Source: Escherichia coli (GTDB taxonomy: Bacteria; Pseudomonadota; Gammaproteobacteria; Enterobacterales; Enterobacteriaceae). From it: a DNA stretch of 64,000 nt. The notes under the pieces were generated by a model. That model saw only the letters and a list, made by a program, of their open reading frames with translations, searched no databases and was not told where the DNA came from. Made by a program: the position numbers and the translations under genes. The stretch is taken from NCBI RefSeq assembly GCF_044324875.1, contig NZ_CP172185.1, one strand, 5' to 3'. Below are positions 7,993 through 58,158 of this stretch, piece by piece (the first letter of the stretch is position 1; each line of letters begins with the position of its first letter).

Positions 7993-8478
7993 TTAGCGGG
8001 AAGCGCCAACCGTAAGGCTGGCAATGATTTTTTCGGAGAGTGAGAGAGATTCGCGATGATTAAGACCAAGAGCAGCACAAGCTTTATTGCGCGCCGGGTT
8101 GTCCATGCATTCAAGCACCGGAGAGTCCTGCTTCTCAATTTCCACCAGTCGCGCCAGCAACACCTCCGTGCTGAGACCGTCGCTTTCAGTAATCAGGACG
8201 TTATAGCGATGAGCCTGTTCTTTTGCAGCCTGAGCGCGTCGCCCAAATTTCCAGGCGATATTGCAGCCACTAAGCACAGCCACGATACCACCCAGCAACC
8301 AACTGAAATTGCTGCCTGCAAACACAGTAGCCCCAGACGTAAGGATGACAGCATTAATCACCGTATCCATACGGCGGTTAAACACCTCCGAAATATGTTC
8401 AATCCAGTAACTGTTCCAGAGACGAAACATGACCTCGTGTCGCCGTTCGGCATGATTTTCAGTTGGTTGTCTGTTCAT
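7993..8478 (-). CDS. Two-transmembrane-helix small membrane protein (161 aa), oriented against the early operon
   Basis: Two adjacent hydrophobic helices (VINAVILTSGATVFAG; FSWLLGGIVAVLSGCNIAW) followed by a charged helical tail; opposite strand to every neighbouring early gene; 243-bp upstream region of its own. Confidence 0.6.
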   Translation of the reverse strand: MNRQPTENHAERRHEVMFRLWNSYWIEHISEVFNRRMDTVINAVILTSGATVFAGSNFSWLLGGIVAVLSGCNIAWKFGRRAQAAKEQAHRYNVLITESDGLSTEVLLARLVEIEKQDSPVLECMDNPARNKACAALGLNHRESLSLSEKIIASLTVGASR

Positions 8479-8721
8479 TGCGGTTTAACCCTCCTCATCA
8501 TCTCGCCCCTGCCCTTTTTCAGGCGCGGGAGCCGGTTGCCGTGGCACATGAAATTTATCGCTATCAGACATTTATTTTTTCCCGTGTGTTGTTGAACAAA
8601 GTGCCCGCACAGTTTTGACGGAACGGCGGGCGCTTCAAGCGTAACACACCCTTCTTTTCCGGTTGAAGGCGAAAAAAACCGGACAGCTACCCGACACAAA
8701 CCAGACCAGCGGAGAACTGCC

Positions 8722-9276
8722 ATGTACGCACTTAAACCTATGGGGATACCAGGCAAAGCCCCGGCGCATGTGAAAGCCTGGACACAGCAGGAAGATGATT
8801 TGCTGATCACCCTGTACCCGCAGCACACAGCACGAGATATCGCCGGACGTCTGGGGCGCAGCTACGAAGGAGTTTGCGGCCGCATTTCTCGTCTGCGTGA
8901 ACAGGGCAGGATTGGCATCAAGCAGCAAAGACTAAGCGATGAGATGATCGCCACGCTCATCAGGAACCGCCACACCAGGTCCCTCAAGGAACTGGCACAC
9001 ATGGCGAAAGTTTCGACACGCACGGTAACCAACCGATTGAGGGCGCTGGGCTACAGCCTGATCAAATGCGGGGATCTGCATAAAAACACCGTCTACAGCG
9101 ACCGCATCGTTGAGATTATCAGACAGTTACACGACGAGGAGGGCCTGACGTTCAGGGAAATCGCACAGCGCCTTAGCCACGAACTACAGCCGAACCCTAC
9201 CCCGACACTGGCTCAACGTCTCTACTGGCGGTGCACAGCATCCGACGCCGTATTCCGTGAACTGTTACCAGATTGA
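8722..9276 (+). CDS. Putative DNA-binding protein with three tandem helix-turn-helix-like repeats (184 aa)
   Basis: Three ~40-aa segments each with a similar pattern (e.g. ...ARDIAGRLGRSYEGVCGRISRL / ...LKELAHMAKVSTRTVTNRLRALG / ...FREIAQRLSHE). Confidence 0.5.
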   Translation: MYALKPMGIPGKAPAHVKAWTQQEDDLLITLYPQHTARDIAGRLGRSYEGVCGRISRLREQGRIGIKQQRLSDEMIATLIRNRHTRSLKELAHMAKVSTRTVTNRLRALGYSLIKCGDLHKNTVYSDRIVEIIRQLHDEEGLTFREIAQRLSHELQPNPTPTLAQRLYWRCTASDAVFRELLPD

Positions 9277-9394
9277 GCAATCACCATGTACACACAAAAA
9301 AACCGCTTGCAACAACAAACCGGAACAGGGTACGCTTCCCCCGCACCTCATAAAGCGGGTGCCGGGTTTCGCAGCCTGCTGACTAGCAAAGCGC

Positions 9395-9417
9395 ACAACC
9401 GCGCCAGCGGTTTTTTT
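9395..9417 (+). terminator. Intrinsic terminator-like hairpin plus T7 within the 320-bp non-coding stretch after the 8722..9276 gene
   Basis: aaccgc-gcca-gcggtt followed by ttttttt. Confidence 0.45.
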
Positions 9418-9596
9418 GTGCGTACTGTATTGCCACGTCTTTTTCGCACACGAATTATGGCGGGGCGTACGGGGCCGACTTCGGTCGGGCCGGGTTCTTT
9501 GCTAGCCGGTACTGCGAACCTCGTACGTCTCGCCACCCACAGTTTCGCAGCTCTGGATGGTGAGTTTTTAAAACTTACTAGCAAAGAGGCCACACC

Positions 9597-9815
9597 ATGG
9601 CAAACCGCAAACAGCGCCGCGCTACTGCGGAGCATCACCACGTCCGCGCCCAAATCGACAAACGCCTTTTCCGCGCATCACGCGTTGCACGCATCATGCA
9701 CATCAACATGCTGCATGAACGCAGAGGGGCACTACCGAACACCTATATCGCCTCCGTTTTCAGCTATCTGGCGGACGATCTCGCCGAGCTGCAACGCCTC
9801 ATTAACCAGCACTGA
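9597..9815 (+). CDS. Hypothetical protein (72 aa)
   Basis: ORF preceded by an AAGAGG Shine-Dalgarno at 9584..9589. Confidence 0.45.
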   Translation: MANRKQRRATAEHHHVRAQIDKRLFRASRVARIMHINMLHERRGALPNTYIASVFSYLADDLAELQRLINQH

Positions 9816-9887
9816 TAAACATCCCGAAGCCATCCTGCGCCCGTTCGCGGGAGGCTTCCACACATCTGTAGTCGGGAGGATTGCGCC

Positions 9888-10256
9888 ATGATTCTGGCTG
9901 ACGATTTTCTGGAGTACCTGAACAACACCGAGCGCGACCTGTACGCGCGCGTTCTCACCCGTTACGAGAAATACAAACTTTCACTGCCAGAGCATCAACT
10001 CCGCGAAGGCGATATCGACATTGAAGGGCGCTACATCGTCAGGCGCCGCATAGCGGGCTACGGCATCTGGCGTGTCACCGGACGTGAGCATTCATTGCTG
10101 ACCATCTGCCAGAGTCCGTCCGGCGTGATAACGGAGATCGTCGCCGATAGTCTGCGACTCACCCATCACAGCGCCACCCCGGAAGAAACGCTGGCAGAAA
10201 CCCAGCGTCTGTGTCGCGTCATTGCCAACGCCGCCCTCCGCGCAGACAGGAGGTAA
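9888..10256 (+). CDS. Hypothetical protein (122 aa) immediately upstream of gene A
   Basis: ORF in early operon orientation, ends 4 nt before the A start. Confidence 0.5.
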   Translation: MILADDFLEYLNNTERDLYARVLTRYEKYKLSLPEHQLREGDIDIEGRYIVRRRIAGYGIWRVTGREHSLLTICQSPSGVITEIVADSLRLTHHSATPEETLAETQRLCRVIANAALRADRR

Positions 10257-10259
10257 GCG

Positions 10260-12749
10260 ATGGAGTTCGTCAGAGACTGGCAAAAACCGCGCCCCGCTAT
10301 CGGGCGCGAAGGCTTACCCGTACCTGAAACCGCACTGGATACCATCCTGAAGTGTTACCGCGCAGACGAAGAGCGCGCACTGCACGCTGAAGAGCAGGGT
10401 CATCCGCTTGCGGGCACAACCATCGGTAACGCGATCGACAAGTGGGAAGGCGCACAGGAGCGCCAGGAAGAGGCCATCACGCTCACACAGGAAGCGAGAA
10501 GACACCCGCCCACCCTTATTGAGGAAACCCTCAAAGAGCTGGACACCCTGCCCAAGTGGTTGAGGCTGCCGCTGATTAAGCACCTGAACTTTTTAAGGCG
10601 CAAACAGGAGGACGAACAGCAGAAAGGCAAGCGCGGCAAGGACACCCGCAAATATGAGCGCTTCCTGAAAAACGGCATCCCCGCACGTCTTCGCCGTATT
10701 CGTGAGATTAACGCTCGCTTTGCACCGTTAAGTTTTCAGGCCGCTGCCATGCGCGAGAGTCTGGAAGAACTGATCACACTGCCGAACCTGAGCCGTGAAC
10801 GCATCCAGAAAATAGCCGTACTGCTTGCCAGCGCCGTTAAAATGCATCTTGCCGACGCAATGGACAAGGCCCGCGAAATAACAGGGAACGACAAAGACGA
10901 CAACCTGAACAACTGGCTGATTGCCTACCAGTATATTGGTCGCCGTGTCCTGAAGCTGGGGATCACCCCACCATACTGGAGCGCCCTTGAACTCCGCCCC
11001 GACCGCAGAAGCCCCCCGGACGTGACACTGGTTCCGGGCGCTGTTTTGCGCCTGAACGACGCCGAATGGTGGAATAAAAAACTTCGCCAGATGCACGACG
11101 TCTGGCGTGAGGAACTTTTACGTGCAGCGGGCCTTGTATCCCGCCAGACCTCCGTTTATGTGAGCCGTGAAGCGCTGGCAGACTTCCGCGAAAAACAGGC
11201 CCGTACCCGCGATTTTCTCAAAGCGCACGACGTGGAGAACGAAGACGGCGAACGCATCAGTCTGGAAGATATCTACTACGCCAGTACATCCAACCCGCAT
11301 AACCGCCGCAACGAGATGATGGCGTGCGTTAAGGGAATGGAGCTTATCGCACAGGAACGCGGCGACGTGGCCTTCTTCGTCACGGTCACAGCCCCGTCTC
11401 GTTTTCACAGCGTCACCGACGCAGGCACGCTGAACCCGAAATACAAAGGCGCAACCGTAAAGGACGCCAGCGACTATCTGGTTTATAACTTCTTCGCCTC
11501 CGCCCGCAAACTCATCAAAAAAGAGAAGCGGGGCTGGTACGGCATTCGCACCGTGGAGCCTCACCACGACGGCACGCCCCACTGGCACATGCTGGTATTC
11601 ACAAGCCCTGAGAACGAAGAGCGCATCACGGAAATCATGTGCAATGCCGCCATTCGCGAAGACCGGGCAGAGCTGGGCGACGACATCACCCCGCGCTTCA
11701 AGTGCGAGAAGATAGATCCCGAAAAAGGCACGCCAACCAGCTACATCGCCACCTACATAGGCAAAGGCATTGACGCCGCTGCATTCGGCGACACGGATCC
11801 AAAAACAGGTAAACCGCCCGTTGACCACGAAAGCGGAAAACCTATGGCGGACACCGTGGAAAACGCCGTCGCCTGGGCGCGCCTGCATCGCATTCGCCAG
11901 TTCCAGTTCTTTGGCCTCCCTTCCCGTCAGGTGTGGCGTGAGTTCCGCCGCCTTGCCGGACAAATGGCACGCAACCCGAAGGGGCCGCAGGCACTGACCA
12001 ACCCCAAAGCCGACGCCCTCCTTGTTGCAGCCGATACGGGGTGTTTTGCCAGCTACATCATGCATCAGGGCGGTGTGCTCATTCCCCGTAGTGAATATCT
12101 GGCCCGCACAGCCTACGTCACCGCAGAAGAGCCGAACAATTACAGCGAATTCCCCGAGCGCATTTACGGTATCCGCATGCCGGAACTGGGGGAGGACTTC
12201 ACGTTATGCACCCACCCGGAAGAGTGGAAAATCGTCAGAAAGGAACCGGAACCAGACAACCGCACGGGCGAGGGTTTTGACCTTCAGGGCGGCCCCGCCG
12301 CCCCTTGGACTCGTGGCAATAACTGTCACCCTGACGAAAAAACAACCAACAACAGCACACAAACCGGACAGTCAGAGTGGGCAAAACTGCCCCCCTTACC
12401 CCCATCGTCGGACGGTTTTGTGAGCTGGTTTAAGTCGCTTAAGAGGCCGGACAGGAAAAAACTACAAAGATTGCTCAAAAAACGCACCGAAGAGAGTCGC
12501 CAGAACGCCAGCGGCGGCACCGACACACCCACCGACACCATTAACCTGGGCGTTGTGCTGCCGGAACTGCCGGAAATCGTGCAAGTCCGCCGCGATCTGG
12601 AAGCGCTGGGCGCGGACTTCCCCGAAGCAATGGCCCATTCCGTCTTTATGGGTGCCCGCGTTCGTCTGGGTAACGGTCGCACCGTTCACCGCGACGAGCA
12701 GACCGGGCGCATCACCGTCACCAGTCTGCAACCGGAGGCGAAACCATGA
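10260..12749 (+). CDS. A: Replication initiation protein, P2 gene A family (rolling-circle endonuclease)
   Basis: 829 aa; contains an HUH-type metal-binding motif (HDGTPHWHMLVF) and a downstream tyrosine motif (SYIATYIGKG), as in rolling-circle initiators; position as for P2 A. Confidence 0.85.
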   Translation: MEFVRDWQKPRPAIGREGLPVPETALDTILKCYRADEERALHAEEQGHPLAGTTIGNAIDKWEGAQERQEEAITLTQEARRHPPTLIEETLKELDTLPKWLRLPLIKHLNFLRRKQEDEQQKGKRGKDTRKYERFLKNGIPARLRRIREINARFAPLSFQAAAMRESLEELITLPNLSRERIQKIAVLLASAVKMHLADAMDKAREITGNDKDDNLNNWLIAYQYIGRRVLKLGITPPYWSALELRPDRRSPPDVTLVPGAVLRLNDAEWWNKKLRQMHDVWREELLRAAGLVSRQTSVYVSREALADFREKQARTRDFLKAHDVENEDGERISLEDIYYASTSNPHNRRNEMMACVKGMELIAQERGDVAFFVTVTAPSRFHSVTDAGTLNPKYKGATVKDASDYLVYNFFASARKLIKKEKRGWYGIRTVEPHHDGTPHWHMLVFTSPENEERITEIMCNAAIREDRAELGDDITPRFKCEKIDPEKGTPTSYIATYIGKGIDAAAFGDTDPKTGKPPVDHESGKPMADTVENAVAWARLHRIRQFQFFGLPSRQVWREFRRLAGQMARNPKGPQALTNPKADALLVAADTGCFASYIMHQGGVLIPRSEYLARTAYVTAEEPNNYSEFPERIYGIRMPELGEDFTLCTHPEEWKIVRKEPEPDNRTGEGFDLQGGPAAPWTRGNNCHPDEKTTNNSTQTGQSEWAKLPPLPPSSDGFVSWFKSLKRPDRKKLQRLLKKRTEESRQNASGGTDTPTDTINLGVVLPELPEIVQVRRDLEALGADFPEAMAHSVFMGARVRLGNGRTVHRDEQTGRITVTSLQPEAKP

Positions 12750-14460: not shown

Positions 14461-14533
14461 TTGCCCCTCCTGCTAAACATCGGTTTATTTTTTAATTTGC
14501 TGCCGGTGATAAAAAACGGCGGGTCGCCCCGCC

Positions 14534-14806
14534 TTAGTATGTTGTCGAGGTTCTCCGCTGAATACGGAGGATCCTGATAACCACTATCTGCCCTCCCTCA
14601 ATCGTGAACCTGACACGGTAATGATTTACCCTGAGTCTGTACTCCCCGCCCGAGTCAGTGAGCTTTTTAATATCCAGATTCTGGAACTTCGGATAGCCAT
14701 AAAGCGCGTTAACTTTCTCGCGTAAGGATTTCTGATCCCTCGCTGGCAAAACCCGTAAATCTTTGATTGCCCGAGGGGTCCACATGATTTCAGTCGTCAT
14801 AAACAC
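14534..14806 (-). CDS. RelE/ParE-superfamily toxin-like protein (about 88-90 aa; start GTG 14806 or ATG 14800)
   Basis: N-terminal ...WTPRAIKDLRVL... and C-terminal YRLRVNHYRVRF...IVVIRI segments resemble RelE/ParE/HigB-type toxins. Confidence 0.6.
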   Translation of the reverse strand: MFMTTEIMWTPRAIKDLRVLPARDQKSLREKVNALYGYPKFQNLDIKKLTDSGGEYRLRVNHYRVRFTIEGGQIVVIRILRIQRRTSTTY

Positions 14807-14851
14807 ACCGGAAGCAAATTATTAAAGAGCCGTGCCCGCTGGCACACCTTA

Positions 14852-14880
14852 AATATAGGTTTTAACCCCTATATTGTCAA
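14852..14880 (-). promoter_or_regulatory. Sigma70-like promoter (TTGACA-N17-TATATT on minus strand) with an embedded 7-bp inverted repeat operator, upstream of the RelE-like gene
   Basis: Minus-strand ttgaca / 17-bp spacer / tatatt; spacer contains atatagg...cctatat palindrome (plus 14853..14874). Confidence 0.55.
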
Positions 14881-15057
14881 ACAAAATCCCTATATCATGA
14901 AGTAAAAAAGCACCTCCCGCGACCTCCCTTTCCGGTGCACGAAAGTGCACAAATTTGCACAATTTTTTTGAACGACTTTTTGCCCTTCCGGCCCGTGTGG
15001 CGTCTGGATCCGTCGGGGATCCGTGCGTGCACGAAAAAAGGCCTTTTTCTGCGCGCA

Positions 15058-15076
15058 GGTGACGGGGGAACAGCCC
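15058..15076 (+). other. Candidate cos (cohesive end) 19-mer ggtgacgggggaacagccc
   Basis: GC-rich 19-mer in the non-coding region between early/cargo genes and the portal gene; matches 13 of 19 positions of the P2 cos sequence as I recall it (GGCGAGGCGGGGAAAGCAC). Tentative. Confidence 0.3.
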
Positions 15077-15389
15077 GCGTTTCAGGGGGTAAATAGCATT
15101 CCCTGAACGATGTTGCAGTGACACAACAGAATGGCTGTATTTCTCACGCTGAGCGTGAAAAAGACGTAAGGGCTTTTGATTTGATGGGGTGAAAGATAAG
15201 GCCGTCAAAATCGCACTGAGGCAGCGAGAATATGTCGTCAGAGTTGCGGGGTTGCGTAAGCATCCGCCCGGCGATGATGGCTACAGGGCTGGAGATGTTG
15301 TGAAATTATCTGAAGGAATAACCAGCTTGCAGGAGAACCCGGGCAAAGTCAGAATAGCGGCAGGCATCAACTCAAAAGAGGATAATGTC

Positions 15390-42273: not shown

Positions 42274-43068
42274 ATGGATCTGTTGTACCGGGTAAAAACG
42301 CTTTGGGCCGCGCTGCGCGGTAATCATTACACCTGGCCTGCTATCGATATCTCTCTTCCCGGCAATCGCCATTTTCATCTGATTGGCAGTATTCATATGG
42401 GTAGCCACGATATGGCTCCCCTGCCCACCCGTTTGCTCAAAAAGCTCAAAAACGCCGATGCGCTGATCGTCGAGGCGGATGTTTCCACCAGCGATACGCC
42501 TTTTGCTAATTTGCCTGCCTGCGAGGCGCTGGAAGAGCGCATTAGCGAGGAGCAACTCCAAAATCTGCAGCACATTAGCCAGGAGATGGGCATTTCTACC
42601 TCACTCTTTTCTACCCAACCGCTGTGGCAAATCGCGATGGTTCTTCAGGCGACGCAGGCACAAAAACTGGGGCTGCGGGCAGAATACGGTATCGATTACC
42701 AGCTATTGCAGGCGGCGAAGCAACAACATAAACCCGTGATTGAACTGGAAGGGGCTGAAAACCAGATTGCCATGTTGCTCCAGCTCCCTGACAAAGGACT
42801 GGCGCTGCTGGACGATACGCTGACCCACTGGCACACCAATGCACGGTTGCTGCAACAAATGATGAGCTGGTGGCTGAATGCGCCGCCGCAAAATAATGAA
42901 ATAACGCTGCGTAATACGTTCAGTCAATCGCTGTACGATGTGCTGATGCATCAGCGAAATCTCGCCTGGCGGGACAAATTATGCGCCATGCCGCCGGGGC
43001 GCTATGTGGTCGCAGTCGGTGCACTACACCTGTATGGAGAAGGGAATTTGCCGCAGATGTTGCGCTAA
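42274..43068 (+). CDS. ybaP: TraB-family protein YbaP
   Basis: 264 aa, synteny between copA and ybaK. Confidence 0.85.
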   Translation: MDLLYRVKTLWAALRGNHYTWPAIDISLPGNRHFHLIGSIHMGSHDMAPLPTRLLKKLKNADALIVEADVSTSDTPFANLPACEALEERISEEQLQNLQHISQEMGISTSLFSTQPLWQIAMVLQATQAQKLGLRAEYGIDYQLLQAAKQQHKPVIELEGAENQIAMLLQLPDKGLALLDDTLTHWHTNARLLQQMMSWWLNAPPQNNEITLRNTFSQSLYDVLMHQRNLAWRDKLCAMPPGRYVVAVGALHLYGEGNLPQMLR

Positions 43069-43256
43069 AAAAATGGCCAATATCGCTATTGGCCCGTCAA
43101 AGAGGAATTTCATATTTTTATTATTATGCCGTCACTTTAAGCGACGGTGTAACTCGATTGTCGCTCAATCTCACCATCCTGCCAATACTCTTAGGCAAGA
43201 TGACTCTTTTTTTTGGACCGCCATCAGGCGTATGCTTGCTTCGTTTTTTTGTTTAA

Positions 43257-48826: not shown

Positions 48827-48910
48827 GTAGGCATGATAAGACGCGCCAGCGTCGCATCAGGCATTGAGAGCAAAATGCCAGATGCGGCGTGAACGCCTTA
48901 TCTGGCCTAC
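48827..48910. repeat. BIME / REP elements (two inverted REP units)
   Basis: gtaggcatgataagacgcgccagcgtcgcatcaggc and gccagatgcggcgtgaacgccttatctggcctac match REP consensus types. Confidence 0.8.
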
Positions 48911-56226: not shown

Positions 56227-58158
56227 TCAAATGGGGCGGATACTTTCTTCATCCAGCTCCGCATCGAAGAATCGACGCAGGGTCTGAATATTATTATCCG
56301 CAATAATGGACTCGCGCGCCTGCGCAAGTTTTTCTTCGTATATCGCCTGACGCCATTCCAGCGGCGTACGCACCGCGGGATTATCATCTTCAACGATAGT
56401 CAGTTCAACCGTTGAACCTTTTAACGTGCTCAACGCTTCAGCCAGTTTTTGCTGTGCGCCGCGGTTGTTCAAATGCCGCTGAGAGGAGCGCAAATGCAGA
56501 CATACTGCGTTGTCGCTCTCCTCTTTCCAGGCATTTAACGCCACCTGTTCGACCAGTTTTGGTAGCGAAAGTTGACTCACCTGAGCCGCCCACGGGTCGC
56601 GCTCAATGGCTTCTGCCGCCAGCTTCGCCGCCAGTTCCGGCGTTTTTTCATGTTCCAGCGCTTTTTTTAGCGCCTTCGGCGTGGCGACCACTTCTTTTTG
56701 CTGCATCACTGGAGTGGTAGCCTTCCAGCGATACGCTTCTTTTTTGGCTGGCGCTTTTTCCAGCGCCGATGGCACCGGACGCGCCTGAACGCGATCGGTG
56801 ACCGAAGCCAGTCTTTCCAGCGCAGCGTTATTCACCGGCCGCGCGCGGGTAGCGGCTGCCGGTTCACTCTTTTTTGCTTTGGTTGCTCCCTGCACGCGCT
56901 GCAACTGCTGGCGCGCCGCCAGCACCTGGCTGGTGGTTTCCGGGAGCGGTACAGTCGGTGCCTGCTGCGGCGCTGATTGCGGTTGTGGCGGCACCTGGGT
57001 TGGCGTCATTACTGCCGTTGGCGCAACGAGCGCAAAGGACTGGCGTGGCACTTCTGGCTCAGGCAGAGGCATACGCGGATGGAACGCCAGCGCGCGCAGC
57101 AGCGTCATCTCAACACCCATACGGCGGTCTGGCGCATACGGTAATTCTTTGCGACCAATCAACAGCGTCTGATAGTAAAGCTGAATATCCGTCGGCGGTA
57201 TGGTGCGCGCCAGTTCACGCATCCGCAGCTCAATGGCGGCCATGTCGTTGCCAAGAGCAGCAGGCGAAAGTTGTACCATCGCAATACGATGCAACAGACC
57301 GAGCATTTCCACCAGCAACGCTTCCCACTCGATACCACGGGCAGCAGCTTCATTAATTAGCGCCATTACGCGCTCGCCGTTGGCCTCGACCATCGCTTCA
57401 ACCAGCGATAACGCCTGATCGTCGTCAAGCGTACCCAGCATCGCACTGACCGCCTGGGTTGAAACCTGGCCGTCACCGCTGGCAATCGCCTGGTCGGTCA
57501 GACTTAAGGCATCTCGCAGGCTGCCTTCAGCGGCGCGTGCCAACAATTGCAGCGCCCGCGGCTCGTGAGCGATATGTTCTTCGTTGAGGATGTGCTCAAG
57601 CTGATGGCGAATTTGCTCGACATCCAGCGCCTTGAGATGAAATTGCAGACAGCGTGACAAAATCGTCACCGGCAATTTCTGCGGATCGGTCGTCGCCAGC
57701 AAAAACTTAACGTGCTCTGGCGGCTCTTCAAGGGTTTTTAACAGTGCGTTAAAGCTGTGACGCGACAGCATATGCACTTCGTCGATGAGATAAACTTTGA
57801 AACGACCACGCGCCGGAGCGTACTGGACGTTATCCAGCAGGTCGCGAGTGTCTTCAACTTTAGTGCGCGAGGCGGCGTCGATTTCAATCAGATCGACAAA
57901 GCGCCCCTGCTCGATTTCACGACAATTATCGCACACGCCGCACGGCGTCGCGGTAATGCCGGTTTCGCAGTTTAGCCCCTTCGCCAGCAGTCGGGCGATA
58001 GAGGTTTTTCCGACGCCACGGGTACCGGAAAAAAGATAAGCATGATGAATACGCCCTAACGACAAGCCGTTCGCCAGTGCGGTCAGCACATGTTCCTGGC
58101 CGACGACGTCAGCAAAGGTTTGTGGGCGCCATTTTCGGGCTAAGACCTGATAACTCAT
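56227..58158 (-). CDS. dnaX: DNA polymerase III tau subunit (gamma produced by frameshifting)
   Basis: 643 aa with AAA+ motifs; contains the A AAA AAG slippery site. Confidence 0.97.
   Translation of the reverse strand: MSYQVLARKWRPQTFADVVGQEHVLTALANGLSLGRIHHAYLFSGTRGVGKTSIARLLAKGLNCETGITATPCGVCDNCREIEQGRFVDLIEIDAASRTKVEDTRDLLDNVQYAPARGRFKVYLIDEVHMLSRHSFNALLKTLEEPPEHVKFLLATTDPQKLPVTILSRCLQFHLKALDVEQIRHQLEHILNEEHIAHEPRALQLLARAAEGSLRDALSLTDQAIASGDGQVSTQAVSAMLGTLDDDQALSLVEAMVEANGERVMALINEAAARGIEWEALLVEMLGLLHRIAMVQLSPAALGNDMAAIELRMRELARTIPPTDIQLYYQTLLIGRKELPYAPDRRMGVEMTLLRALAFHPRMPLPEPEVPRQSFALVAPTAVMTPTQVPPQPQSAPQQAPTVPLPETTSQVLAARQQLQRVQGATKAKKSEPAAATRARPVNNAALERLASVTDRVQARPVPSALEKAPAKKEAYRWKATTPVMQQKEVVATPKALKKALEHEKTPELAAKLAAEAIERDPWAAQVSQLSLPKLVEQVALNAWKEESDNAVCLHLRSSQRHLNNRGAQQKLAEALSTLKGSTVELTIVEDDNPAVRTPLEWRQAIYEEKLAQARESIIADNNIQTLRRFFDAELDEESIRPI
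56869..56875 (-). promoter_or_regulatory. dnaX programmed -1 frameshift heptamer A AAA AAG (tau/gamma)
   Basis: Plus-strand ctttttt at 56869..56875 = minus aaaaaag within ...GCA AAA AAG AGU GAA..., encoding the ...AKKSE... region of tau. Confidence 0.85.

What the first reader, a model, noticed from the sequence alone, without database searches (positions are those of the whole stretch)
8722..9276. Early-region protein with three tandem HTH-like repeats
Three about 40-aa repeats each resembling a sigma-region-4 or Myb-like helix-turn-helix is unusual for a P2-type early gene and sits beside the moron above; could be a regulator of cargo or host genes.
Basis: seen in the sequence. Interest (0 to 1): 0.35.

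Follow-up and report, generated by a model that had tools for sequence, protein, structure and literature searches.

The report
Prophage early protein, three HTH modules
The gene is real and encodes a small basic protein made of three consecutive helix-turn-helix DNA-binding modules. It belongs to an uncharacterised accessory early-gene family of temperate phages, so it is fairly ordinary, apart from diverging far faster than its neighbours.

Summary
The ORF at 8722-9276 (+), 184 aa, is a real gene in a P88-like (Xuanwuvirus, P2-type) E. coli prophage. RefSeq calls it "DNA-binding protein".

**The three repeats hold.**
- They are not detectable by pairwise alignment of the single sequence.
- They are clear in profile-profile comparison: E 5.5e-16, 1e-7 and 7e-6, against 0.03-0.8 for controls.
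- AlphaFold2 (pLDDT 92) gives three 3-helix bundles plus a C-terminal helix.
- Unit 1 resembles Myb repeats and the GcrA DNA-binding domain. Unit 3 resembles sigma region 4.

**Family and position.** It belongs to a roughly 180-aa family with conserved N- and C-terminal motifs, found in early operons of P2-like, Mu-like and a CI-repressor-type prophage. In P88-like phages it occupies a variable slot just 5' of the isrK/C4 RNA module.

**Not the moron's regulator.** All four presence/absence combinations with the neighbouring 161-aa ORF occur.

**Most likely function.** A monomeric multi-HTH double-stranded-DNA-binding accessory early protein; its target is unknown.

**Unusual features.**
- It is a divergence hot-spot with mosaic alleles inside near-identical prophages.
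- In other phages it sits beside DNA methylases and an anti-Thoeris sponge.

Interest is low to moderate.

The parts
8711..8714 (+). Shine-Dalgarno-like GGAG, 7 nt upstream of the ATG
   Evidence: Read directly from the sequence. The same GGAG-spacer-ATG arrangement is seen in the L005 allele.
8722..9276 (+). CDS of the 184-aa tandem-HTH protein (pI 9.8), including the stop codon
   Evidence: ORF list. RefSeq CDS in the L001 relative. phrog_323 E 1.6e-28. Family of about 180-aa orthologues. pI.
8722..8778 (+). Conserved N-terminal peptide, aa 1-19 (L-x-P-M-G-x-P-G-x-x-P-x-H-V-K/R-x-W follows). It is the most conserved segment of the family.
   Evidence: Invariant in the 8 E. coli alleles. Mean majority fraction 0.88 in close alleles and 0.64 in the broad family. 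Moderate model confidence, pLDDT 68-77.
8770..8919 (+). HTH unit 1 (aa 17-66): Myb/SANT- and GcrA-DBD-like tri-helical module, helices 22-31, 37-44, 48-60
8923..9072 (+). HTH unit 2 (aa 68-117): very basic (pI 11.3) tri-helical module, helices 73-82, 88-95, 99-108
   Evidence: Pfam HTH_11 best stretch at aa 75-109. Mos1 transposase HTH and Cbp2 matches. hhalign. pI.
9046..9099 (+). Conserved inter-unit linker, aa 109-126 (G-x-x-L-x-K-C-G-D/E-x-H ... Y-S-D)
   Evidence: K115, G117 and D127 are invariant across the 26-member family. Conservation profile.
9085..9237 (+). HTH unit 3 (aa 122-172): acidic (pI 5.2), sigma-region-4 / resolvase-HTH-like module, helices 127-138, 144-152, 161-168. It is the site of the divergence patch relative to L001.
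   Evidence: Sigma70_r4, HTH_38 and HTH_24 at aa 131-152. hhalign U2 vs U3 E 1e-7. 20 of 21 nucleotide differences from L001 lie at 9072-9258.
9238..9273 (+). C-terminal helix and conserved tail (aa 173-184, ...A-x-D-x-V-x-x-E-L-L-P-D)
   Evidence: AF2 helix 173-181. E-L-L-P is invariant in the E. coli alleles and conserved in the broad family.
8720..8736 (.). Left copy of an imperfect 17-nt direct repeat (CCATGTACGCACTTAAA) that brackets the gene
   Evidence: Repeat family D2, 82% identity, spacing 564 nt. A prophage without the gene (L015) carries a single hybrid copy at the junction.
9284..9300 (.). Right copy of the direct repeat (CCATGTACACACAAAAA). DNA homology to all P88-like phages resumes here.
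   Evidence: D2. Megablast homology to P88-type phages starts at window 9286. Alignment of junctions.

Best explanation
The gene encodes an accessory early protein of a P88-like (P2-type) prophage.

**Shown.**
- The protein is a basic 184-aa polypeptide built from three consecutive tri-helical helix-turn-helix modules.
- Units 1 and 2 are Myb/SANT- and GcrA-DBD-like. Unit 3 is sigma-region-4-like.
- These sit between a conserved N-terminal peptide and a conserved C-terminal helix.
- The gene lies in the rightward early gene string, on the same strand as the replication gene A, in a variable cargo slot immediately 5' of the isrK promoter.
- No terminator lies between it and isrK.

**Inferred.**
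- It binds double-stranded DNA as a single chain.
- It places the third helix of at least units 1 and 2 in adjacent major grooves, so it reads a long asymmetric site, as c-Myb R2R3, Cbp1/Cbp2 and Tc3/Mos1/Pax bipartite domains do.
- It is made early after induction or infection from the early promoter.
- It acts as a dispensable regulator or DNA-handling factor rather than a core function.
- The structural cores and termini are conserved while the recognition helices vary between alleles. Different alleles therefore probably recognise different DNA sequences.

The target sites and the biological role are not established.
For: **Real, structured protein.**
- The family has more than 25 full-length members at 31-54% identity.
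- The AF2 model has pLDDT 92.1.

**Three homologous HTH units.** Profile-profile E-values with clean controls.

**DNA-binding character.**
- Overall pI 9.8 and unit 2 pI 11.3.
- c-Myb repeats E 2e-7 and Cbp2 CRISPR-repeat-binding protein E 9e-6.
- Pax, Tc3 and Mos1 bipartite HTH domains appear in the Foldseek list.

**The repeat is used as a DNA-targeting module elsewhere.** The same repeat type is fused to enzymes that act on DNA: HNH nuclease (P0140), a Mom-family modification enzyme (P0154) and a ResIII/Helicase_C helicase (P0012).

**Conservation pattern.** R54 aligns with GcrA K39, a phosphate contact (own alignment against PMC5887438), and is nearly invariant. The third helices are the least conserved helices.

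**Early-operon position.**
- Codirectional, with gaps of about 14-26 bp to the preceding early gene in L007, L017 and phage Shae_phiSM.
- The only terminator-like site between the stop codon and the C4 RNA gene is the isrK terminator at 9397-9412.

**Accessory status.** Absent from P88 and L015, and present in about 1% of complete E. coli genomes.
Against: - No DNA target was identified. Short repeats around the gene are at chance level.
- No promoter-like site lies upstream in the 243-bp intergenic region.
- Unit 3, the unit best conserved across the family, is acidic (pI 5.2). It may bind protein rather than DNA.
- The invariant N- and C-terminal motifs suggest a conserved protein partner.
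- pTM 0.67 suggests a fairly fixed, possibly compact arrangement. This may not allow all three recognition helices to reach one DNA duplex; the coordinates could not be inspected.
- Variable 'recognition' helices are equally compatible with relaxed constraint.
Confidence: 0.6

Rival explanations
1. Partner or counter-defence factor of the phage DNA-modification cluster. The protein would work with or alongside DNA-modifying or anti-defence genes: as a DNA-targeting subunit, a reader of methylated DNA, an Aca-like regulator of counter-defence genes, or an anti-defence protein itself. The window copy would then be an orphan that relies on host Dam or acts alone.
For: **Linkage to methylases in other P2-like prophages.**
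- In five divergent P2-like prophage types the gene lies directly downstream of a Dam-like D12 methylase.
- Either the stop and start codons overlap (ATGA), or only DUF4406 lies between them (L008-10, L016, L019, L020, L021).
- The gene following it is a PAPS-reductase-like protein (L008, L010) or a C5 methylase (L021).

**Other supporting points.**
- In L013 the next gene carries a Sequestin domain, an anti-Thoeris sponge family (bioRxiv 10.1101/2025.07.12.664507).
- Repeat arrays are fused to a Mom-family enzyme.
- The GcrA DBD, an m6A reader, is the top structural match.
- The gene shows arms-race-like hyper-divergence relative to its neighbours.
Against: - The window prophage's near-identical relative has no methylase or other modification gene annotated.
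- P88-like and Mu-like contexts lack them too.
- GcrA's methyl-pocket residues R33/N34/I37/G38 correspond to Y48/E49/C52/G53 here, and those columns vary across the family (own alignment).
- No methylase fusion was found among the 158 retrieved relatives.
- Adjacency may only reflect the few accessory slots available upstream of gene A.
Confidence: 0.2
2. Protein-binding adaptor acting on RNA polymerase or another host protein. The HTH-like folds, especially acidic unit 3 and the invariant termini, would serve as protein-interaction surfaces. Parallels are GcrA pre-recruitment to sigma-70 and the tandem-HTH exclusion protein Ltp. DNA contact would be secondary or absent.
For: - Unit 3 is acidic.
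- Unit 3 and the two termini are the best-conserved parts.
- Sigma70_r4 and r4_2 profiles match unit 3.
- Ltp, a non-DNA-binding tandem-HTH phage protein, appears weakly in Foldseek (E 1.3).
Against: - Units 1 and 2 are basic and match bona fide DNA-binding repeats.
- There is no GcrA sigma-interaction domain (no Pfam GcrA match).
- The sigma matches are below Pfam thresholds for this protein.
- The Ltp match is not significant.
Confidence: 0.12
3. One reading: a dedicated transcriptional regulator of the adjacent minus-strand 161-aa cargo gene (7993-8478), forming a divergent regulator-cargo pair.
For: - The two genes are divergent neighbours separated by 243 bp in the window.
- They also lie together in L005.
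Against: - All four presence/absence combinations exist among P88-like prophages.
- L005 pairs the 161-aa ORF with an HTH allele that is only 51% identical.
- The shared intergenic sequence follows the 161-aa ORF, not the HTH gene: L015 has it without the HTH gene.
- The family also occurs in Mu-like and other phages that lack this ORF.
Confidence: 0.04

Closest known systems
c-Myb DNA-binding domain (R1R2R3) and SANT/Myb repeats (Pfam PF00249 / PF13921)
   Same: - Three consecutive tri-helical repeats of about 50 aa in one chain.
- The W-T-x-E-E-D ... L ... G-R-T/S signature in unit 1.
- The family profile matches all three Myb repeats (E 2e-7).
- RefSeq names sister alleles 'SANT/Myb-like DNA-binding domain-containing protein'.
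   Different: - A bacteriophage protein.
- Only unit 1 scores as Myb, and the query alone is below Pfam's threshold (16.2 vs 22.9 bits).
- The regularly spaced tryptophans are mostly absent.
- Unit 3 is sigma-4-like and acidic.
- It has extra conserved N- and C-terminal motifs.
GcrA DNA-binding domain (Caulobacter cell-cycle regulator, PDB 5yiu/5yiv)
   Same: - Relatives with repeat arrays pass the Pfam GcrA model.
- Several relatives sit next to an adenine methylase, as GcrA works with CcrM.
   Different: - No sigma-70-interacting C-terminal domain or zinc motif.
- The methyl-pocket and base-contact residues are not conserved.
- It has three DNA-binding-type modules instead of one.
Cbp1/Cbp2, archaeal CRISPR-repeat-binding proteins (PDB 2lvs)
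   Same: - Small basic proteins made only of two (Cbp2) or three (Cbp1; from my own knowledge) tandem HTH modules joined by short linkers.
   Different: - Archaeal and CRISPR-associated, whereas no CRISPR array is involved here.
- They lack the conserved terminal motifs of this family.
Bipartite HTH DNA-binding domains of Tc1/mariner/IS630 transposases and Pax paired domains
   Same: - Two HTH sub-domains joined by a short linker that read adjacent major grooves as a monomer.
- Mos1 matches unit 2 (E 4e-4).
- Pax6, Pax5, Tc3 and Mos1 appear in the Foldseek list.
   Different: - No DDE catalytic domain.
- It has three units.
- The matches are weak (Foldseek E at least 0.02).
HTH arrays of phage homing endonucleases and PHROG 323 ('transcriptional regulator, D5-like')
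   Same: - phrog_323 matches aa 5-151 (E 1.6e-28).
- Several HNH-endonuclease PHROGs match weakly.
- Viral structure hits include endonucleases with tandem HTH arrays.
- One relative carries an HNH domain.
   Different: - Free-standing, with no nuclease domain.
- The function of PHROG 323 is itself untested.

Membership tests
Myb/SANT-like HTH repeat (Pfam PF00249, PF13921) | The sequence matches the family profile at or above the curated threshold | tested here: inconclusive
   - Query alone: PF13921 16.2 bits (cut-off 22.9) and PF00249 15.6 bits (cut-off 24.4), covering only aa 19-35.
- Family level: 14 of 26 members match PF13921 at E up to 0.01, best 2.9e-9.
- The family profile hits c-Myb at E 2e-7.
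Myb/SANT-like HTH repeat (Pfam PF00249, PF13921) | Tandem tri-helical repeats of about 50 aa, with the third helix as the recognition helix | tested here: met
   The AF2 model gives three 3-helix units with a period of 51-54 aa. Profile-profile homology between the units is significant.
GcrA family (Pfam PF07750) | N-terminal DNA-binding-domain fold | tested here: met
   [not shown]
GcrA family (Pfam PF07750) | C-terminal sigma-70 region-2-interacting domain with a CCCH zinc motif | tested here: not met
   No Pfam GcrA match for the query. The rest of the chain is two further HTH bundles. The feature definition comes from PMC5887438.
GcrA family (Pfam PF07750) | m6A pockets and base contacts (R33, N34, I37, G38, R42) | tested here: not met
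   By manual alignment these positions are Y48, E49, C52, G53 and R57 in the query. The columns vary among alleles (residues).
Sigma-70 family (region 4, PF04545 / PF08281) | Region-4 profile match above threshold, together with regions 2 and 3 | tested here: not met
   22.1 bits (cut-off 24.1) and 18.7 bits (cut-off 25.7), over aa 131-151 only. No region 2 or 3. NCBIfam sigma models score 12-15 bits against cut-offs of 43-206.
PHROG 323 (phage 'transcriptional regulator, D5-like') | Significant match to the family profile | tested here: met
   E 1.6e-28, 101 bits, aa 5-151 on profile positions 82-230 of 319. The match is partial because family members are longer arrays. The functional label is an annotation, not a tested function.
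Known anti-phage defence proteins (PADLOC-DB) | Match to a defence-system protein model | tested here: not met
   Only weak matches of generic HTH type to CARF/CasR/WYL regulators (E at least 3e-5, no stretch passing on its own). The neighbouring 161-aa ORF has no match.
Anti-CRISPR-associated (Aca)-type regulators | An HTH gene adjacent to counter-defence genes that represses their promoter through inverted-repeat operators | not tested
   - Adjacency to counter-defence-type genes is seen only in relatives.
- No own promoter or operator was identified in the window.
- Repression cannot be tested with these tools.
Canonical P2 early genes (cox, B, orf78-83) | Homologue present in P2, 186 and other isolated P2-like phages | tested here: not met
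   tblastn against 50,697 phage records found 5 records: one Xuanwuvirus, two Stx-phage records carrying a Mu-like insert, and two records of phage Goslar. No other phage record matched.

The most novel reading that the evidence does not exclude
The gene is a fast-evolving, cassette-like specificity determinant caught in an arms race. It would be a tandem-HTH early protein whose recognition surfaces are shuffled between alleles because it either neutralises, or is sensed by, a host or rival-phage defence. Its conserved termini would dock on a constant partner.

Several observations hint at this but none was tested:
- Its recurrent placement among methylases.
- An anti-Thoeris sponge next to it in one phage.
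- Its position, in P88-like phages, directly in front of the isrK/C4-derepression switch.
Probability: 0.12. Interest if true: 0.6.

Novelty: new member of a known kind. Interest (0 to 1): 0.3.

Why it matters
As it stands, this is one more uncharacterised phage DNA-binding protein.

**What the work adds.**
- It defines a coherent family of about 180 aa: three HTH modules plus conserved terminal motifs.
- The family is shared by the early operons of P2-like, Mu-like and a CI-repressor-type prophage of enterobacteria.
- Its neighbours in other phages are DNA methylases, other modification-type enzymes and a known anti-defence sponge.
- It behaves as a local hot-spot of divergence and recombination.

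Together these make it a reasonable, cheap candidate for counter-defence or regulator screens.

**By-product.** The work delimits a variable cargo slot of Xuanwuvirus prophages just 5' of the isrK/C4 RNA module.

Tried and rejected
1. **Pairwise alignment of the three segments of the single sequence.** Not significant. Replaced by profile-profile comparison.
2. **NCBIfam and PADLOC.** No family or defence assignment.
3. **Whole-chain fold search in PDB.**
   - Foldseek was run on the first, shallow model (pLDDT 77.7).
   - It gave no match with E below 0.01.
   - The afdb50 library was not available.
4. **Binding sites and promoter.**
   - Only short two-copy repeats at chance level were found.
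   - No promoter-like site lies in 8479-8721.
5. **GcrA-type m6A reader.** The fold matches, but the pocket residues are not conserved and the sigma-interaction domain is missing. Rejected as membership and kept only as a lead.
6. **Methylase fusion (Rosetta stone).**
   - An HMM of the linked Dam-like methylases was searched against the 158 retrieved relatives.
   - It found none.
7. **Link to AnrP of the Gifsy-1 isrK locus.** Rejected. AnrP lies downstream of isrK (PMC4825925), where this prophage has a 72-aa 'derepression' protein.
8. **Literature searches.** Searches on Myb-like phage proteins, Xuanwuvirus/P88, GcrA-like phage proteins and PAPS reductase/Dam found no study of this family.
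9. **dN/dS between distant alleles.** Not attempted beyond the close pair, because synonymous sites are saturated at about 50% amino-acid identity.

Full report
**1. Where the finding sits**

The window contains a P2-type prophage of the P88 / Xuanwuvirus lineage.
- It is inserted next to glsA-ybaT in an E. coli chromosome. A 98.8%-identical copy is annotated in strain 24A16CRGN010.
- The annotated gene order is integrase, a C-type repressor and a rightward string of small early genes.
- Then come a minus-strand 161-aa ORF (7993-8478) and the finding's ORF (8722-9276, +).
- Next come two Rfam-confirmed RNA genes: isrK at 9343-9417 (64.7 bits) and C4 antisense RNA at 9453-9540 (82.8 bits).
- These are followed by a 72-aa 'derepression' protein (9597-9815), a 122-aa ORF and the replication endonuclease gpA (10260-12749).

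The ORF is exactly as described. It has a GGAG 7 nt before the ATG, and RefSeq annotates it as 'DNA-binding protein'.

Within this one sequence the three segments are not significantly similar to each other (z 0.5-1.4). I therefore built the family:
- Eight close alleles (alignment A1).
- A profile search of 1.84 billion representatives returned 3,778 hits at E up to 0.001.
- About 25 of the 150 best hits listed are full-length proteins of about 180 aa (alignments).

Slices of that alignment compared with hhalign give:

| Comparison | Probability | E-value | Columns |
|---|---|---|---|
| Unit 1 vs unit 2 | 98.6% | 5.5e-16 | 41, in register |
| Unit 2 vs unit 3 | 94.2% | 1e-7 | 35 |
| Unit 1 vs unit 3 | 84.3% | 7e-6 | 21 |

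Reversed or column-shuffled profiles never did better than E 0.028.

AlphaFold2 improved with alignment depth. With 8 sequences it gave pLDDT 77.7. With 26 sequences it gave pLDDT 92.1 and pTM 0.67. The model shows three 3-helix bundles (22-60, 73-108, 127-168) and a terminal helix (173-181).

**3. What kind of modules are they?**

- *Unit 2.* It matches HTH_11 and MarR-type profiles and the second HTH of Mos1 transposase.
- *Unit 3.* It matches sigma-70 region 4, HTH_38 and HTH_24.

None of these amounts to membership of the GcrA or sigma families; the membership table gives the tests. The protein is basic overall (pI 9.8), with unit 1 at 9.2, unit 2 at 11.3 and unit 3 at 5.2.

Among the more distant relatives, the same repeat occurs in arrays of 4-12 copies. 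Such arrays are fused to an HNH nuclease, a Mom-family modification enzyme or a ResIII/Helicase_C helicase. This is independent support that the repeat is a DNA-targeting module.

**4. The family and its contexts**

The roughly 180-aa family has features that generic repeat arrays lack:
- A nearly invariant N-terminal L-x-P-M-G-x-P-G-x-x-P-x-H-V-K/R-x-W.
- A conserved K-C-G-D-x-H ... Y-S-D linker.
- A C-terminal T-A-x-D ... E-L-L-P tail.

Contexts observed:
1. **P88-like prophages and phage Shae_phiSM.** The gene occupies the same slot, just 5' of isrK/C4.
2. **Other P2-like prophages.**
   - The gene lies directly after a Dam-like D12 methylase.
   - Either the stop and start codons overlap, or only DUF4406 lies between them.
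   - It comes before a PAPS-reductase-like gene, a C5 methylase, a derepression gene or gpA.
3. **Mu-like prophages.** Between gp12 and GemA/Mor.
4. **A prophage with a CI-type repressor.** Immediately before a Sequestin-domain gene. [quoted passage not shown]

The gene is rare in isolated phages, with 5 of 50,697 records. It is present in 53 of 5,426 complete E. coli genomes, and 9 of them carry this allele.

**5. Relation to the 'moron'**

The 161-aa minus-strand ORF has only PHROG matches of unknown function (best phrog_6315) and no Pfam or PADLOC assignment. It and the HTH gene occur in all four combinations among P88-like prophages.

The intergenic DNA upstream of the HTH gene travels with the 161-aa ORF (L015).

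The HTH gene itself is bracketed by an imperfect 17-nt direct repeat (8720-8736 and 9284-9300). L015 has a single hybrid copy at the empty site. This indicates clean gain or loss of a one-gene cassette. A dedicated regulator-cargo pair is therefore not supported.

**6. Evolutionary behaviour**

The gene is a divergence hot-spot.
- **Against L001:**
  - The flanking genes are 99.5-100% identical; gpA has 4 differences in 2,490 nt.
  - The HTH gene has 21 differences in 555 nt.
  - Twenty of those lie in unit 3, and dN/dS is about 0.7.
- **Against L005:** the first 100 nt or so are 84-100% identical and the last 45 nt or so are identical, but the middle is only 32-54% identical.
- **L008 vs L019:** the upstream methylase is 93% identical and the HTH protein 54%.

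The third helices of the three units are the least conserved helices. The N-terminus, the first helices of units 1 and 3 and the C-terminus are the most conserved. I read this as intragenic mosaicism with either diversifying or relaxed selection on the putative recognition surfaces. I could not distinguish between the two.

**7. Most likely mechanism**

*Shown:* a folded, basic, three-HTH protein encoded in the early gene string. No terminator lies before isrK.

*Inferred:*
- It binds double-stranded DNA as a single chain through at least units 1 and 2.
- It is expressed early.
- It is dispensable.
- It has allele-specific targets.

Confidence is about 0.6 for this general statement and much lower for any specific role.

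*Rivals:*
- A role tied to DNA modification or counter-defence (about 0.2).
- A protein-binding adaptor role (about 0.12).

**8. Comparison with what is known, and novelty**

It works like Myb R2R3, Cbp1/Cbp2 and bipartite transposase or Pax domains. It is not a member of the GcrA, sigma-factor or transposase families.

RefSeq already labels alleles 'DNA-binding' or 'SANT/Myb-like'. I found no study of the family.

I file it as a new member of a known kind, with low-to-moderate interest. The hyper-divergence and the counter-defence neighbourhoods are the only features that could raise it.

Noticed in passing
window 9288-9310 and 9403-9425 (around isrK, 9343-9417): A 23-nt inverted repeat (91% complementary) encloses the whole isrK gene.
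- RNA that starts upstream, as read-through from the HTH gene, folds at -56.2 kcal/mol (z -4.0). Its long-range helix replaces the isrK terminator hairpin.
- RNA that starts at the isrK 5' end forms the terminator.
- Both arms are invariant in 8 loci, including phages that lack the HTH gene, so no covariation is available.
- This may be promoter-dependent antitermination: early-operon transcripts read through, while PisrK transcripts stop.
   Followed up: partly
window 9343-9417, 9453-9540, 9597-9815: An isrK sRNA gene, a C4/CI-type antisense RNA gene and a 72-aa 'derepression' protein (Pfam PF25738) lie in tandem inside the early operon, just before gpA.
- The layout resembles isrK-orf45-anrP of Gifsy-1. 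From my own knowledge it also resembles the P1 and P4 immunity RNA modules.
- The module is conserved at 80-90% DNA identity in most of the 1,148 complete E. coli genomes that match this stretch.
   Followed up: partly
window 7993-8478 (-): A 161-aa minus-strand ORF is inserted antisense in the early gene string.
- Its best match is phrog_6315, of unknown function.
- It has a weak membrane-protein-like Pfam hit and no PADLOC hit.
- It is gained and lost independently of the HTH gene.
   Followed up: partly
window 9286-9891 (+): A 201-aa ORF overlaps isrK, C4 and the derepression gene. Its composition is odd, and it covers two confirmed RNA genes. It is almost certainly not a gene. Some records annotate 'ash family protein' over this stretch.
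   Followed up: no
slot between the last conserved early gene and window 9284; compare L002 4084-4914: The position just 5' of the isrK promoter is a variable cargo slot of P88-like prophages. Its contents differ by phage:
- A lipoprotein/serine-protease gene in P88.
- The 161-aa ORF alone in L015.
- The HTH gene alone in L007, L017 and Shae_phiSM.
- Both in the window.
- Methylase-DUF4406-HTH in L016.
   Followed up: partly
L008 5045-7547; L019 3045-4561; L020 3033-4549; L021 2719-5469; L016 3734-5549: There is conserved synteny between a Dam-like D12 methylase and the HTH gene in divergent P2-like prophages.
- The order is methylase, optionally DUF4406, then the HTH gene.
- The HTH gene overlaps the stop of the preceding gene by 4 nt in L008 and L019 and by 1 nt in L020.
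- A PAPS-reductase-like gene or a C5 methylase sometimes follows.
- The methylases are far better conserved than the HTH partner: 93% vs 54% in one pair.
   Followed up: partly
L001 15515-16229 (corresponds to window about 14514-15228): A RelE-family toxin with an HTH antitoxin pair and an HVO_A0114-family DNA-binding gene lie between gpA and the portal gene. This is the classical P2 cargo region.
   Followed up: no
window 43067-43150 (-), 48830-48907 (-), 56830-56894 (-): Host chromosome features outside the prophage: sroB sRNA, naRNA4 and the dnaX frameshift element. In the relative, glsA next to the integrase is a pseudogene with an internal stop.
   Followed up: no
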